From positions 15,811 to 79,810 of IMG/VR virus record IMGVR_UViG_3300047551_002099: 64,000 nucleotides of DNA; one strand, written 5' to 3'. Numbering within the stretch: the first letter of the stretch is position 1; each line of letters starts with the position of its first letter. This document shows positions 2,024-64,000 of the stretch, in pieces. The translations under genes were made by a program, and so were the position numbers. This DNA is from a virus. The notes beneath the pieces were generated by a model. That model was not told where the DNA came from and made no database searches. It saw nothing but the letters and a program-made list of their open reading frames with translations.

Positions 2024-3793
2024 ATGGCGACCACCTTTAACTTTGAAGACCGCTTTTCCTACCCCCAACCCAACGGGATTAGCCCTGGTGTTGATGCTGA
2101 AACTGCCCAAACTTTGGCAGACGATGAAATCGAGCAGGAGTCCCCAGAGTTAAAGAGTATGGCAGCTATGGTTCGTCAATACTCGGTGCTACTAAAGCGA
2201 AAGCGCACCCTAGATATTTTTAATGTTATTACTCAGCAGACAGACCCACGCTGCGCGTTAATTCTTTCGGCAGCGCGCCGACGCAACACTAATCTTCCGC
2301 TTTTCAAAGGGATTAACGAAGTCCGGCAGGTCATGTTCAATGATGATGCTCGTAATCCTGACCCCAACCGTCCCTTAGACCAGACGTTGAACAACCGGTT
2401 GTTCAGTGACGGGGTTCGTAGGGCTAGTGCAGCGCTTGCAGCGTCTATTTTAATGGCAGAACTACCTGAAATTCAGCGGGAGTATGCTGCAAAAGTTGAA
2501 GAACAGGCAATTGCTGACTTAGACCGGATTATTGCTACATATGAAATTCAATCCCAGTTGCCCTCTACAGATAAAACATCTGAGCCGGCACCAATTGCTT
2601 TCTACTTTGAGCCGCTAGACTTTGAAATAGACCCGGCCTTGGAATTAGCCGTTGAGTGGTACTCCCCGTCTATTGTTAATAACTGGACAGCTGTACAGAC
2701 CTATACAGGTAAGACATCAACTTGGCATATTGTCAGCGACTTAGCTGACTCAATGAATATGTACACCAGCCAGGATGTCGATAAAGCATTGCTTGCTTCT
2801 GCTGACCTGTCTGGACCTTTACTAGGTTCTTCTTACTATCACACCTTATCTTTCTACCCCCGCAAGCCTATCAACGGGGTGCTGGGTTACTCTATTAACG
2901 TCAAGATTGAACTTCGACCGACTGGGTCCCCCCAAGAGCCCCCGATTGTGATGGGTGGGGCTACAGCTAACGAAGCAGAAGATATTTACGGGTTGTCCCC
3001 ATTTAAGTGGGGCCCTTACCCCAGTTCTATCGACACTTATCCTATCAACGGTAAGATTATCGTCCTGTACTTTGGTAAGTCGGCTGCCTTGACCCCACAG
3101 GAGCTAAACGATGCCTACATACCCACAGTACTTTACTTCCGTAATAAGATTCATTACACCGGGCAACCGACAGCTCTGCTTGACCCAGATGACCCGCTAA
3201 GCCCCCCAGACCCTGCTAGTATTATAGAACCGCTTCAGCAGGCAACTCTCCGTTTTCGAGTTCAGCCGTGGCATCCTAATATAGCCGCGATCGATAACCA
3301 ACCTGTTGAAGTCAGTGTTCCTTTTGAGCGGCTTTTAAGCGACGGCACAATAAGCCAAGTTGATCTAGATAACAGCCGGTATTCCCAAATCGCGGTTCAG
3401 CTACTATACGAAATGTCTTATATCGACTTGTCTACTAAAGCAACTGGGTGTATCGTTCGTAATGACCCTGTAGAGCAAGCACAGCCACTATCTGGACTAG
3501 AGTTAGTAGCGTGGGGGATTAGCAAGTCAGTATCTCACATTGTCTTGGACGTTTTAGAAATACCCCCGGATTTAGAAATGGCAACAGGTGATTTAACTGG
3601 CCCGAAAACCTCTTTTAGCTCCAATCCCCGCTCCCTGCGGGTGAAGGTTCAGAACGAGGCATTTGCAACAAACCCTCTTCTTGAAGCTGCCGCTACGCGG
3701 GAGCCTATTGGAGTTGTCCCCAAAGCAAATACCAAAGTATGGCGAGCCATCTTAGAGGAATCTAGCTCTGTAGAAGATTCCCGGTACTACTAA
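2024..3793 (+). CDS. putative head-tail connector/neck structural protein
   Basis: 589 aa, AAGGA RBS, lies between head genes and tail sheath. Function is inferred from position only. Confidence 0.4.
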   Translation: MATTFNFEDRFSYPQPNGISPGVDAETAQTLADDEIEQESPELKSMAAMVRQYSVLLKRKRTLDIFNVITQQTDPRCALILSAARRRNTNLPLFKGINEVRQVMFNDDARNPDPNRPLDQTLNNRLFSDGVRRASAALAASILMAELPEIQREYAAKVEEQAIADLDRIIATYEIQSQLPSTDKTSEPAPIAFYFEPLDFEIDPALELAVEWYSPSIVNNWTAVQTYTGKTSTWHIVSDLADSMNMYTSQDVDKALLASADLSGPLLGSSYYHTLSFYPRKPINGVLGYSINVKIELRPTGSPQEPPIVMGGATANEAEDIYGLSPFKWGPYPSSIDTYPINGKIIVLYFGKSAALTPQELNDAYIPTVLYFRNKIHYTGQPTALLDPDDPLSPPDPASIIEPLQQATLRFRVQPWHPNIAAIDNQPVEVSVPFERLLSDGTISQVDLDNSRYSQIAVQLLYEMSYIDLSTKATGCIVRNDPVEQAQPLSGLELVAWGISKSVSHIVLDVLEIPPDLEMATGDLTGPKTSFSSNPRSLRVKVQNEAFATNPLLEAAATREPIGVVPKANTKVWRAILEESSSVEDSRYY

Positions 3794-62295: not shown

Positions 62296-62345
62296 AGTTT
62301 AAACAGCTAAGTGCGTCACCTTAGTACTATGGCACATTTCTTAAG

Positions 62346-62378
62346 AAAAAGTGAAGGGGGTGCATAGTATGCGCCCCC
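62346..62378 (-). terminator. terminator of the tmRNA/tRNA transcript
   Basis: Minus strand GGGGGCGCATA-C-TATGCACCCCC followed by TTCACTTTTT. Confidence 0.65.
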
Positions 62379-62537
62379 GGTGACCTAGTTGGGTAACAAG
62401 GTTAGGTCAGACCCCGTCATTCATACCGCAACAGCGGTACGTTTGAAAGCAACCACTTGGTTGGCATTTGTTGTTTGCTCATCCGAGCAGGCTTCATCGT
62501 AGTGCCATCCTTTACCAATCGAAACCGTTGCATCCCC
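62379..62537 (-). ncRNA. ssrA: tmRNA coding piece (permuted, two-piece type); tag ANQVVAFKRTAVAV*
   Basis: Starts GGGGATGCAACGGTTTCGA, has GAAGCCTGCTCGGATGAGC, and AAACAACAAAT precedes the GCC resume codon. Tag ORF 62465-62421 resembles cyanobacterial ANNIVxFxRxAxAA tags. Downstream pseudoknot TGACCTA/TAGGTCA with GGGT/ACCC. Confidence 0.92.
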
Positions 62538-62538
62538 G

Positions 62539-62573
62539 TGGTACAAGGTACAGGAGTCGAACCTGTCTAAGCG
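62539..62573 (-). pseudogene. 3' half of split tRNA-Ile2(CAU)
   Basis: CGC-TTAG-ACAGG-TTCGACT-CCTGT-ACCTTGT-ACCA. ACCTTGT pairs with the GCAGGGT start at 63304. Confidence 0.8.
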
Positions 62574-62577
62574 GGCG

Positions 62578-62665
62578 TGGGCAAAGCGGGAATCGAACCC
62601 GCGACCTCTGTTAGAGGCTGCCGGCTTATGAGGCCGGTCCTAGAAACCAACGCTAGTCTTTGCCC
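62578..62665 (-). tRNA. atypical tRNA with CAU anticodon and long variable arm
   Basis: GGGCAAA/TTTGCCC-A acceptor, CTAG/CTAG D-stem, CCGGC-CTCATAA-GCCGG anticodon arm, GCCTCT-AAC-AGAGGT variable arm, GCGGG-TTCGATT-CCCGC T-arm. No encoded CCA. Confidence 0.85.
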
Positions 62666-62717
62666 TGGAGACCCGAACCTAGATGTATAATAGAAGTATT
62701 TTAGCTTACTATTTATC

Positions 62718-63272
62718 ATGCAAGAACGAGAAAGGTATTTGAACGGCTATAAACTGGTGCATGCTCCTGACAATTTTTCTATTATGGATAGTGAAAATTG
62801 GTCGGGATGGGTGTATGAGCATAGATACGTAATGGAGCAACATTTAGGTAGAGCTCTGACCTCAGAAGAGGTTGTGCACCACTTGGACGGTAATAAGGAT
62901 AATAACCATATCACTAACTTGATAGTGCTCTCTAAGATAGACCACGGTAAGTTACATCGTTGGATGGATAGTAAGATAATCGTGGATAAACCAGAAACTC
63001 AACCTATTATCGTTGAGTGTGCCCACTGCAAAGCTAAATTTAAAAGACTTAATAAAGACTCTAAATATTGCTCTAATGAGTGTGCTCATTATGCCTCAAG
63101 GAAAGTCGTTAGACCTACTGCGGAGCAGTTAGCCAAATTAATCTGGCAATATCCTATGACTCAGCTTGGAGCTATGCACGGTGTTAGTGATAAGGCTGTT
63201 AAAAAGTGGTGTAAAGCCTACGGTATAACCGAGTTTCCTCCTAAAGGTTACTTTTTACGAAAGCTTGCATGA
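62718..63272 (+). CDS. HNH homing endonuclease (inserted antisense in tRNA-Ile2)
   Basis: VYEHRYVMEQHLGR...VVHHLDGNKDNNHITNL, followed by CxxC...CxxxC and an HTH-like tail. TATAAT at 62686. Stop codon lies on the tRNA anticodon loop. Confidence 0.92.
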   Translation: MQERERYLNGYKLVHAPDNFSIMDSENWSGWVYEHRYVMEQHLGRALTSEEVVHHLDGNKDNNHITNLIVLSKIDHGKLHRWMDSKIIVDKPETQPIIVECAHCKAKFKRLNKDSKYCSNECAHYASRKVVRPTAEQLAKLIWQYPMTQLGAMHGVSDKAVKKWCKAYGITEFPPKGYFLRKLA

Positions 63273-63304
63273 GTTCGCTGCCTTAACCGCTCGGCCAACC
63301 CTGC
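63269..63304 (-). pseudogene. 5' half of split tRNA-Ile2(CAU)
   Basis: GCAGGGTTGGCCGAGCGGTTAAGGCAGCGAACTCAT ends exactly at the CAT anticodon and closely resembles the cyanobacterial tRNA-Ile(CAU) 5' half. Confidence 0.85.
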
Positions 63305-63308
63305 AAGG

Positions 63309-63379
63309 CACCTCCTGAAGGAATCGAACCCTCGTATTCGGTTTTGGAGACCGACGTTCTGCCACTGAACTAAGGAGAT
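63309..63379 (-). tRNA. trnW: tRNA-Trp(CCA)
   Basis: ATCTCCT/AGGAGGT-G acceptor, GTTC/GAAC D-stem, TCGGT-CTCCAAA-ACCGA, GAGGG-TTCGATT-CCTTC. Confidence 0.95.
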
Positions 63380-63380
63380 T

Positions 63381-63410
63381 TGGTGGAGATGGGGAGAGTC
63401 GAACACTCCA
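63381..63410 (-). ncRNA. ssrA: tmRNA acceptor piece, 3' segment (T-loop, acceptor 3' strand, CCA)
   Basis: GTTCGACT-CTCCC-CATCTCC-ACCA. CATCTCC pairs with GGGGATG at 62537-62531, giving the AlaRS G3:U70 pair and A73. Confidence 0.88.
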
Positions 63411-63416
63411 TAGAGT

Positions 63417-63445
63417 TTGACTCTTATACAAGTATAAGCTATCAT
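63417..63445 (+). promoter_or_regulatory. sigma70-type promoter for the second HNH gene
   Basis: TTGACT-N17-TATCAT, 6 nt upstream of ATG 63452 (near-leaderless mRNA). Confidence 0.65.
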
Positions 63446-63451
63446 ATACTT

Positions 63452-63934
63452 ATGAAAAAAGCAAAAGCTGACAAAACCCCAAGAACTTGCTTCACCTGTA
63501 AAGCTGATTTTGTCCCTTCTAGCAACCACAAAAATTGTCCTGTATGCCGTTCTTTAGCAAGAAAGCATTTTTGTGACTGCGGCAAGGAGATATGGGAAAA
63601 GTCTACTAGGTGTTTACGATGCCATAATCTCAATAAAACAGGTAAGTCATTGGGTGTTACTTACCACAAGAGAGGTTATGTCATGCGGAGGGTTCATAAG
63701 GAATATGTTTTTGAACATATTCTTGTTATGGAGCGCCATCTCGGTCGTAAGCTACTAGAAGGTGAAAATGTGCACCACATTAATGGTGTTAAAGACGACA
63801 ACCGTATCGAGAATCTTGAGCTGTGGACTCGACCCCAACCGGCTGGAGTTCGCGCCAAAGATATTCTTAAATGGGCTAGACAAGTTATTGAAACCTATGA
63901 GCCTATAGAACATCTGCTTTCAAGTTCTGAGTAG
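63452..63934 (+). CDS. HNH homing endonuclease with Zn-finger N-terminus (inserted antisense in tmRNA)
   Basis: CxxC repeats, then YVFEHILVMERHLGR...NVHHINGVKDDNRIENL. ATG at 63452 is preferred over the ORF-track start. Confidence 0.92.
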   Translation: MKKAKADKTPRTCFTCKADFVPSSNHKNCPVCRSLARKHFCDCGKEIWEKSTRCLRCHNLNKTGKSLGVTYHKRGYVMRRVHKEYVFEHILVMERHLGRKLLEGENVHHINGVKDDNRIENLELWTRPQPAGVRAKDILKWARQVIETYEPIEHLLSSSE

Positions 63935-63939
63935 CGTTG

Positions 63940-63971
63940 CCGTCTTGGCAACCAGCCGCTACGACTATCCC
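63940..63971 (-). ncRNA. ssrA: tmRNA acceptor piece, 5' segment (helix-2 3' strand plus GAC); true 5' end uncertain
   Basis: TCGTAG pairs with CTACGA and TTGCCAA pairs with TTGGTAA of the coding piece, followed by the conserved GAC and the first GG of the T-stem. Confidence 0.75.
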
Positions 63972-64000
63972 AGTTTAAAGACGTATGGAAGGTCTATTGT

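What the first reader, a model, noticed from the sequence alone, without database searches (positions are those of the whole stretch)
62578..62665. Class II-shaped tRNA with a CAU anticodon and non-canonical core
Long variable arms are normally limited to Leu, Ser, Tyr and Sec tRNAs in bacteria. This 88-nt tRNA has a 6-bp variable stem, G rather than U at position 8, and two nucleotides between the D and anticodon stems, yet all stems pair fully. C4:G69, A37, A38 and A73 fit Ile identity (lysidine-modified CAU), while A73 plus a long arm could recruit LeuRS and mistranslate AUG/AUA. A decoy role against tRNA-targeting defences is also possible.
Basis: partly seen in the sequence, partly recalled or inferred. 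Interest (0 to 1): 0.7.

Follow-up and report, generated by a model that had tools for sequence, protein, structure and literature searches.

The report
Odd CAU tRNA on homing cassette
The long-armed 88-base tRNA is real, and it is the end piece of a selfish endonuclease insertion that split the phage's own CAU tRNA, so it is most likely a spare part replacing the gene the insertion destroyed.

Summary
The gene lies on the minus strand at 62665..62578. It is an 88-nt cloverleaf with anticodon CAU, G8, a two-base D/anticodon linker and a 6-bp variable stem. ARAGORN and Rfam both call it.

The context changes the reading. The window is a fragment of a ~216-kb uncultured phage. In a 96%-complete relative (L003), a permuted two-piece tmRNA gene carries tRNA-Trp and an ordinary 76-nt tRNA(CAU) between its two pieces. 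In the window, a 694-nt insertion (62575..63268) splits that tRNA right after its anticodon. The insertion holds an antisense HNH endonuclease gene and, at its far end, the odd tRNA. Contigs from two unrelated metagenomes carry the uninterrupted allele. A metatranscriptome library from another sample carries the interrupted one.

The odd tRNA has no homologue in any collection I searched, so variable-arm covariation cannot be tested. Its fold is ambiguous between 7/5 and a tRNA-Sec/allo-tRNA-like 8/4.

Best reading (~0.5): a replacement CAU decoder (Met, or Ile after lysidine) carried by a homing cassette. Rivals are an inert passenger, a mischarged allo-like tRNA and a decoy.

This scan has noted long-armed phage tRNAs with class-I anticodons on other DNA before. 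I rate this a new variant of a known kind.

The parts
62578..62665 (-). Odd 88-nt tRNA(CAU). Acceptor 5' strand 62659-62665; D arm 62640-62656; anticodon arm 62621-62637 (CAU = 62630-62628); variable arm 62604-62618; T arm 62586-62602; acceptor 3' strand 62579-62585; A73 = 62578.
   Evidence: ARAGORN. Rfam tRNA 39.5 bits. tRNA-Sec model 41.4 bits. Folds.
62575..63268 (.). Insertion 1 (694 nt). It replaces the 4 nt AAUU of the resident tRNA's anticodon loop and stem. It contains HNH-1 (antisense), a 52-nt spacer, the odd tRNA and a final CGC.
   Evidence: Contigs of runs X4 and X7 join 62574 to 63269 with AATT between. L003 has the uninterrupted gene.
62718..63272 (+). HNH-1 homing-endonuclease ORF (184 aa, P0001). 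Its last codon and its TGA stop (63270-63272) lie in the antisense of the resident tRNA's anticodon loop.
   Evidence: Pfam HNH_3, 41.6 bits. Translation. 201 relatives found, many in phage tRNA clusters.
63269..63304 (-). 5' half of the resident tRNA(CAU), ending exactly at the anticodon CAU (63271-63269).
   Evidence: Alignment to the L003 tRNA at 3177..3102. blastn gives 97% identity over 63269-63404.
62539..62574 (-). 3' half of the resident tRNA(CAU): CCG-CUUAG-T arm-ACCUUGU-A-CCA.
   Evidence: Alignment A1. Joint shown.
62356..62537 (-). tmRNA coding piece. It runs from GGGGAUG through the tag ORF (ANQVVAFKRTAVAV*) to a terminator hairpin.
   Evidence: Sub-threshold Rfam cyano_tmRNA and tmRNA_permuted matches. 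Apart from a few differences in the terminator hairpin, it is identical to the L003 tmRNA, which ARAGORN and Rfam call.
63307..63379 (-). tRNA-Trp(CCA). It is the first tRNA of the intervening segment.
   Evidence: ARAGORN. Rfam 63.3 bits.
63381..63404 (-). 3' part of the tmRNA acceptor piece (T loop, CAUCUCC, ACCA).
   Evidence: Joint shown.
63405..63939 (.). Insertion 2 (535 nt, replacing 2 nt of the T stem). It carries the HNH-2 ORF (63452-63934, + strand).
   Evidence: Joint 63404->63940 with TC between, in X4 and X7. HNH_3, 45.8 bits.
63940..64000 (-). 5' part of the tmRNA acceptor piece (helix-2 strands), running to the end of the contig.
   Evidence: 100% identical to L003 3280-3340.

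Best explanation
The 88-nt gene is a genuine tRNA-shaped RNA. It forms the last part of a 691-694-nt mobile cassette made of an antisense HNH homing-endonuclease gene, a spacer and the tRNA. The cassette inserted into the anticodon loop of the phage's resident tRNA(CAU) gene and deleted 4 nt, which inactivated that gene. The resident gene sits with tRNA-Trp in the intervening segment of a permuted two-piece tmRNA gene. The odd tRNA has the same anticodon and lies in the same transcription unit. It therefore most likely serves as the substitute CAU decoder. I infer that it is cut out of the operon transcript by RNase P and a 3' nuclease, given CCA, and charged by MetRS, or by IleRS if host TilS makes lysidine-34. 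The long arm and unusual core would then be tolerated oddities of a phage tRNA body rather than a change of amino-acid identity. Shown here: the gene, the insertion and its exact limits, the intact allele elsewhere, and the HNH family's habit of living in tRNA clusters. Inferred: expression, processing, charging and the compensation role.
For: The relative L003 has acceptor piece, tRNA-Trp, a 76-nt tRNA(CAU) and coding piece in an unbroken row. In the window the same tRNA is cut after CAU, and its remainder resumes 694 nt away. Contigs from runs X4 and X7, from another study, bridge both insertion sites without the inserts. Each run's bridging contig is a single contig with 55-136 nt on either side of the joints. 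An RNA-library contig from a third sample bridges the junction between the odd tRNA and the 3' half with 0 mismatches. The cassette is tightly built. The HNH stop codon is supplied by the target's anticodon loop, and the odd tRNA's A73 lies 3 nt from the other end. All 27 stem pairs of the odd tRNA are intact. U33, A37, G18G19, G15:C48 and the UUCGAUU T loop are canonical. The anticodon arm, the AGGUC element and the T arm match ordinary phage class-I CAU tRNAs such as the one in L035. Of 94 loci with relatives of HNH-1, 62 carry tRNA genes. The split halves carry 5 differences in 71 nt against L003, including an uncompensated CG->GC change in the anticodon stem. That fits a dead resident gene. 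From established knowledge: the CAU anticodon with A73 is the main MetRS identity set, and class I synthetases bind with the variable region facing solvent.
Against: I found no homologue anywhere, so there is no covariation or conservation evidence for the arm or the core. G8, C14, U21 and the extra linker base break near-universal tertiary positions. Its RF00005 score (39.5 bits) is the lowest among the long-armed phage tRNAs I scored (42-64 bits). The tRNA-Sec model scores slightly higher (41.4 bits), which hints at a non-standard 8/4 fold. It has no encoded CCA, unlike the resident tRNA and the tmRNA acceptor piece. The insertions may be recent, so the intact stems need not reflect selection in this phage. 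The RNA-library contig may come from carried-over DNA. Long tRNAs are not enriched next to HNH genes (7/73 against 10/143).
Confidence: 0.5

Rival explanations
1. Inert passenger. The odd tRNA is a crippled or never-functional tRNA copy that was dragged along when the HNH gene moved out of a donor tRNA cluster. It does nothing in this phage.
For: It has no homologue. It has the lowest tRNA-model score among comparable genes. Several near-universal core positions are broken. The variable arm looks like a 13-nt insertion (CAGCCUCUAACAG) into a class-I 3' half. The second HNH insertion, in the tmRNA T arm, brings no spare part, so compensation is not a rule here.
Against: All five stems pair perfectly, and the anticodon and T loops are canonical, which decay would not preserve. 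The anticodon is the same as that of the destroyed gene. The gene sits flush at the end of the cassette.
Confidence: 0.25
2. Allo-tRNA-like molecule. It folds with an 8-bp acceptor and a 4-bp T stem plus the long arm. It is charged by SerRS or LeuRS, or used outside translation, so that it misreads AUG/AUA or acts as a toxic or regulatory RNA tied to the selfish cassette.
For: G8 can pair with C65, and the 8/4 fold costs only 0.8 kcal/mol more than 7/5. The tRNA-Sec model beats the tRNA model for this gene but not for six other long-armed phage tRNAs. Allo-tRNAs were discovered as tRNA-Sec false positives, carry many anticodons and are linked to mobile elements and toxin-antitoxin loci (PMC5389517). 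A73 is the key LeuRS determinant (established knowledge).
Against: It has A73, not the G73/U73 of Ser-type allo-tRNAs. The D arm has a 4-bp stem and a 9-nt loop, not a long stem with a tetraloop. The sixth anticodon-stem pair would be A.C. CAU with A73 strongly favours MetRS. Replacing a CAU tRNA with a missense CAU tRNA would harm the carrier phage.
Confidence: 0.12
3. Defence-evading decoy. The unusual arm and core make the tRNA resistant to, or a sponge for, a host tRNA-targeting nuclease.
For: Phage tRNAs are known to counter tRNA-cleaving defences. [quoted passage not shown] Long arms on class-I anticodons recur in phage tRNA clusters.
Against: Nothing in this locus points to a particular defence. 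The anticodon loop is the canonical CUCAUAA. The relative L003 manages with an ordinary tRNA(CAU).
Confidence: 0.08
4. Part of a spliced element. The whole insertion is removed from the RNA, restoring the resident tRNA, and the tRNA-like fold helps that removal.
For: Group I introns, some with endonuclease genes, are known in the anticodon loop of cyanobacterial tRNA-fMet (own knowledge) and in the tmRNA T loop (PMC11915505).
Against: There is no group I or other intron match at E<=1. Four nucleotides of the tRNA are missing, and the two anticodon-stem strands no longer pair. The ORF is antisense.
Confidence: 0.03

Closest known systems
Free-standing homing endonucleases in phage tRNA clusters, such as T4/T6 SegB (GIY-YIG; PMC2330249 as cited in PMC13096335) and the HNH enzymes of the phage T5 tRNA region (own knowledge)
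   Same: An endonuclease gene lives among phage tRNA genes and is present or absent between close relatives. It moves together with neighbouring tRNA genes.
   Different: Here the gene sits inside a tRNA gene, in the anticodon loop, rather than between genes. It is antisense and of the HNH_3 family. It brings a complete, sequence-unrelated tRNA with the same anticodon.
allo-tRNAs and other tRNA-Sec-like irregular tRNAs (Mukai et al. 2017, PMC5389517)
   Same: Both have a long variable arm on a non-Leu/Ser/Tyr anticodon and a possible 8/4 acceptor branch. Both are picked up by the tRNA-Sec model and are linked to mobile DNA. Both occur in phage tRNA clusters.
   Different: This one has A73 rather than G73/U73, an ordinary-length D stem with a GG loop and a 5-bp anticodon stem. 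A 7/5 fold is equally good. I did not find CAU named among the anticodons in the text passages I read.
Other long-armed phage tRNA(CAU) genes (IMG/VR loci L021/L141/L142, L034, L044; L064/L121; L026/L143)
   Same: They are 86-88 nt, have the identical anticodon arm CCGGC-CUCAUAA-GCCGG, lack U8 (A8 in the first group) and occur in phages only.
   Different: Those form conserved families with a covarying 3-bp GAAA-capped arm. One lies 1 kb from a TilS-like gene. The window's tRNA shares little beyond the anticodon arm, has a 6-bp arm, and has no family.
Integrative elements that target tRNA/tmRNA genes and carry a replacement 3' end (own knowledge)
   Same: A mobile element lands in a tRNA-type gene and brings the means to keep the function.
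   Different: Those use integrases and restore the same gene with a short duplicate. Here an endonuclease cassette leaves the target broken and supplies a whole different gene.
Group I introns in tRNA-fMet anticodon loops (own knowledge) and in the tmRNA T loop (PMC11915505)
   Same: The insertion sites are the same kind: the anticodon loop of a CAU tRNA and the T arm of tmRNA. An endonuclease gene is inside.
   Different: There is no ribozyme signature, target nucleotides are lost, and the ORF is antisense.

Membership tests
tRNA (Rfam RF00005) | Score above the gathering threshold, with a cloverleaf, a 7-nt anticodon loop with U33, a GG D loop and a UUCRA T loop | tested here: met
   39.5 bits against 29. 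ARAGORN call. Sequence read.
tRNA (canonical core) | U8, A14, A21 and a single nucleotide 26 | tested here: not met
   It has G8, C14, U21 and GA between the D and anticodon stems.
Bacterial class II tRNA (Leu/Ser/Tyr/Sec) | A long variable arm with a stem | tested here: met
   15-nt hairpin with a 6-bp stem (one G.U) and a 3-nt loop.
Bacterial class II tRNA (Leu/Ser/Tyr/Sec) | An anticodon for Leu, Ser, Tyr or Sec | tested here: not met
   The anticodon is CAU.
Elongator tRNA-Met | CAU anticodon, A73 and a paired 1:72 | tested here: met
   CAU, A73 and G1:C72 are present. These features are shared with tRNA-Ile2, so they are not diagnostic.
Initiator tRNA-fMet | A 1:72 mismatch and three G:C pairs at 29-31:39-41 | tested here: not met
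   G1:C72 is paired. The stem is CCGGC/GCCGG, so position 31:39 is C:G.
tRNA-Ile2 (lysidine) | TilS determinants or an isotype-model score, and a TilS available | not testable with these tools
   No isotype models were on hand. C4:G69 is present but 5:68 is A:U. No PF01171 match in G000 or G001. A host TilS cannot be assessed.
allo-tRNA (8/4 or 9/3) | A 12-bp acceptor branch split 8/4 or 9/3 | tested here: inconclusive
   G8:C65 is possible. The 8/4 fold is -36.3 and the 7/5 fold is -37.1 kcal/mol. The tRNA-Sec model aligns it as 8/4 at 41.4 bits, below its threshold of 47.
allo-tRNA (8/4 or 9/3) | A long D stem with a tetraloop, a 6-bp anticodon stem and G73/U73 | tested here: not met
   The D stem is 4 bp with a 9-nt loop, or 6 bp with a C.U mismatch. 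The sixth anticodon-stem pair would be A.C. The discriminator is A73.
tmRNA acceptor piece | A 3' strand that pairs with the coding-piece 5' end through G3:U70, helix-2 strands and an ACCA end | tested here: not met
   UUUGCCC pairs with GGGGAUG at only 5 of 7 positions, with no G:U. There is no helix-2 strand and no CCA. The true acceptor piece is at 63381-63404 plus 63940-64000.
Homing-endonuclease cassette | An endonuclease domain, and presence or absence at the same site in related genomes | tested here: met
   HNH_3 domain. Absent from G001. Empty site in X4 and X7.
Homing-endonuclease cassette | Cleavage of the empty allele | not testable with these tools
   This needs an enzyme assay.
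Group I intron | A ribozyme core, and exact restoration of the exon | tested here: not met
   No RF00028 match at E<=1. The 4 nt AAUU are missing.

The most novel reading that the evidence does not exclude
The selfish HNH cassette carries a tRNA-Sec/allo-type 8/4 tRNA with a CAU anticodon. This tRNA is not an ordinary Met/Ile decoder. It would be charged with another amino acid (Ser or Leu), or act as a toxic or addictive RNA, so that the cassette both destroys the resident CAU tRNA and rewires or polices how AUG/AUA is read in the infected cell.
Probability: 0.08. Interest if true: 0.85.

Novelty: new variant of a known kind. Interest (0 to 1): 0.55.

Why it matters
It suggests a way for a homing endonuclease gene to invade a structured-RNA gene without an intron. 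The cassette breaks the gene and brings a spare with the same anticodon. If the spare works, it also shows that a tRNA lacking U8, A14 and A21 and carrying a 15-nt extra arm can still serve a class-I identity. That is of interest for tRNA engineering and for understanding why phage tRNA bodies are so plastic. There is also a practical point for annotation. ARAGORN labels the gene plain tRNA-Met, and a sub-threshold Rfam tmRNA match swallows it. The broken resident tRNA and broken tmRNA are invisible without a comparison to a relative.

Tried and rejected
Homologue searches for the odd tRNA all came back empty:
- Exact scans of IMG/VR with the 5' part, the D-to-anticodon segment and the T-arm/acceptor segment.
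- A gapped pattern in JGI metagenomes.
- blastn against INPHARED phages, where the best hit covered 40%.
- The relative G001.

Other searches and ideas that led nowhere:
- An anticodon-arm scan was too generic. It mainly returned ordinary CAU tRNAs.
I therefore could not examine the second contig (92 kb) that encodes HNH-1, or the closest relatives P0003 and P0004. The search for related loci with P0003 found only distant copies.
- Reading the tRNA as the tmRNA acceptor piece was rejected on pairing.
- The intron reading was rejected.
- Enrichment of long tRNAs next to HNH genes was not seen.
- No repeat of the variable-arm sequence occurs elsewhere in the window.
- The promoter scan found no promoter specific to the tRNA.
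- In one search, some bins of the RNA run X3 and of X4/X7 had no cover. I draw nothing from that. A low-depth match of X4/X7 within 62585-62641 was not listed, so I could not inspect it.

Full report
OBSERVATION. The feature is real and sits at the stated coordinates, but on the minus strand. ARAGORN reports tRNA-Met(cat) at 62577..62665(-). Rfam's tRNA model gives 39.5 bits against a threshold of 29 at 62578..62665(-). Read in the RNA sense, it has a 7-bp acceptor stem, G8 A9, a 4-bp D stem with a 9-nt GG loop, two linker bases (GA), the anticodon arm CCGGC-CUCAUAA-GCCGG, a 15-nt variable hairpin with a 6-bp stem, a canonical T arm and A73. Every stem pairs. C14 and U21 are further departures from the usual core, and no CCA is encoded. 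The cloverleaf is within 0.5 kcal/mol of the minimum free energy, and the z-score is -2.7.

CONTEXT. The window is the last 64 kb of a 79.8-kb IMG/VR virus record. Sub-threshold Rfam matches to permuted tmRNA families begin inside the 'tRNA' and run downstream. An exact scan with the tmRNA 5' end found one relative, a 216-kb, 96%-complete viral contig (L003/G001). There ARAGORN and Rfam call an intact permuted tmRNA with tag ANQVVAFKRTAVAV. Its gene order is acceptor piece, tRNA-Trp, a normal 76-nt tRNA(CAU) with encoded CCA, one base, then the coding piece.

The window has the same order, but two genes are split. The tRNA(CAU) stops exactly after CAU at 63269 and resumes at 62574. The acceptor piece is cut in its T stem between 63940 and 63404. 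Each gap holds an HNH_3 endonuclease ORF on the opposite strand. The first gap also holds the odd tRNA. G001 has neither HNH-1 nor the odd tRNA.

INDEPENDENT CONFIRMATION. Public runs were laid on 62300-64000. Two metagenomes from another study (X4, X7) each contain one short contig that spans the whole operon without either insert. The joint 62574->63269 skips 694 nt and has AATT in its place. The joint 63404->63940 skips 535 nt and has TC in its place. This matches L003. A metatranscriptome library from a third sample (X3) has a 210-nt contig (62443-62652, no mismatch) bridging the coding piece, the 3' half and most of the odd tRNA. It has others on HNH-1 and on the HNH-2/acceptor junction. 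The interrupted form is therefore not an assembly artefact. It occurs in at least two samples and may be transcribed, although carried-over DNA is not excluded.

ANATOMY OF THE INSERTION. Insertion 1 spans 62575..63268. At one end, the HNH-1 ORF runs 4 nt into the target, and its TGA stop is the antisense of the anticodon loop. At the other end, the odd tRNA's A73 is followed only by CGC. The 5' half in the window has GCGAA where L003 has CGGAA, while the 3' half keeps CCG, so the halves no longer pair. Loose ends in runs X1 and X3 show intact tRNAs in the same samples with a GCGAA...UUCGC or UUCGU stem. I infer that the cassette first sat in such an allele. Its final CGC would be that allele's remnant, and the unit proper would be 691 nt, flush from the HNH stop to A73. 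This is inference only.

Background identity to L003 is 89.5% in coding DNA. By contrast the tmRNA coding piece up to the tag stop and pseudoknot is identical, tRNA-Trp differs at 1 of 73 positions, and the split halves differ at 5 of 71. The resident tRNA looks dead. The insertions may be recent.

WHAT KIND OF tRNA. The 3' half equals an ordinary phage class-I CAU tRNA (for example L035: GCCGG-AGGUC-GCGGGUUCGAUUCCCGC) with 13 nt (CAGCCUCUAACAG) inserted after position 43. With lax filters, the tRNA-Sec model scores 41.4 bits (below its threshold of 47). It aligns the RNA with an 8-bp acceptor stem (G8:C65) and a 4-bp T stem. Six other long-armed phage tRNAs scored as controls all prefer the general tRNA model, at 42-64 bits. 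The 8/4 fold costs only 0.8 kcal/mol more than 7/5. The gene thus resembles the tRNA-Sec-like allo-tRNAs of Mukai et al. (PMC5389517). It lacks their long D stem with tetraloop, their 6-bp anticodon stem and their G73/U73.

It has no relatives. Four exact scans of IMG/VR, one of JGI metagenomes and blastn against cultured phages found nothing.

LANDSCAPE. Long arms on class-I anticodons are not rare in phages. Among unique tRNAs in the loci I fetched, 11 of 216 and 18 of 241 were 82 nt or longer, with clear hairpin arms (Thr, Asn, Lys, Ile-UAU, Arg, Trp, Gly, Cys, Gln).

Long-armed CAU tRNAs with the same anticodon arm occur in 8 other IMG/VR contigs found by the gapped scan, plus one more (L044) seen earlier. 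They occur in a single contig out of 185,579 species genomes. One family (L021/L034/L044) has A8, a covarying 3-bp GAAA-capped arm, and in L034 a TilS-like ORF 1 kb away. This agrees with an earlier scan note on other DNA. Neither G000 nor G001 has a TilS gene.

Relatives of HNH-1 are typical residents of phage tRNA clusters, with 62 of 94 loci carrying tRNAs. Long tRNAs are not enriched beside them.

MECHANISM AND RIVALS. The simplest account is a homing cassette that destroyed the resident CAU tRNA and supplies its own. The supplied tRNA would be cut from the same operon transcript and charged by MetRS, or by IleRS after lysidine formation. CAU with A73 is the main MetRS identity set, and class I synthetases leave the variable region in solvent (established knowledge). 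I give this about 0.5. An inert passenger gets about 0.25, an allo-like mischarged or non-translational RNA about 0.12, a defence decoy about 0.08, and a spliced element about 0.03.

COMPARISON AND NOVELTY. Endonuclease genes that travel with phage tRNA genes are known (SegB; PMC13096335). So are irregular long-armed tRNAs (PMC5389517). A tRNA gene inside a permuted tmRNA's intervening sequence has been reported once as unique (PMC11915505). What I did not find described is an endonuclease cassette inside a tRNA's anticodon loop that carries a complete, unrelated, structurally aberrant tRNA of the same anticodon at its tip. I rate it a new variant of a known kind.

LIMITS. No experiment was possible.

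Noticed in passing
window 62356-64000 (-); L003 2893-3346: A phage-encoded permuted two-piece tmRNA carries tRNA-Trp and tRNA(CAU) in its intervening segment. It is intact in L003 (ARAGORN tmRNA*, Rfam tmRNA_permuted 86.8 bits, tag ANQVVAFKRTAVAV). The 2025 tmRNA database paper calls a tRNA inside the intervening sequence a unique feature seen once.
   Followed up: partly
window 63405-63939: A second antisense HNH_3 gene with a TTGACT-N17-TATCAT promoter is inserted in the T stem of the tmRNA acceptor piece, replacing 2 nt. It brings no spare part, so the tmRNA looks broken. Even so, the coding piece up to the tag stop and pseudoknot is identical to L003, against about 10% background divergence.
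   Followed up: partly
L126-L140, L144-L226: Relatives of HNH-1 have an HNH_3 domain, a Cys4 ribbon and a C-terminal GVSDKAVxKW motif. They sit in phage tRNA clusters in 62 of 94 loci, mostly on the same strand as the tRNAs.
   Followed up: partly
L021 554-641, L034 5571-5658, L044 2211-2297, L078 (tRNA-Lys, 87 nt): A shared long-armed phage tRNA scaffold begins GGGCCGA-AC- (A8 C9) and has a 3-bp arm capped by GAAA that covaries (UCA/UGA, AAC/GUU, GGA/UCC). It is used with both CAU and UUU anticodons. L034 has a 240-aa TilS-like ORF 1 kb away.
   Followed up: partly
all fetched phage loci: 5-7% of unique tRNAs with class-I anticodons are 82 nt or longer, with hairpin variable arms often capped by GAAA, GCAA or GUAA.
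   Followed up: partly
L044 2556-2760: A group I intron match (RF00028, 55.2 bits) lies about 260 nt downstream of the long-armed tRNA(CAU).
   Followed up: no
window 63269 (loose ends in runs X1 and X3): Other contigs in the same samples share the 5' half of the resident tRNA and continue as intact tRNAs with a GCGAA/UUCGC or UUCGU anticodon stem. These may be a host or donor allele.
   Followed up: no
L227 7285-7370: This is the only long-armed CAU tRNA with this anticodon arm among 185,579 species genomes. It lies on a 108-kb contig of a Phycisphaerae MAG, which may be a phage contig.
   Followed up: no
window 30158-53758 (+): A single 7866-aa ORF sits in the structural-gene region.
   Followed up: no
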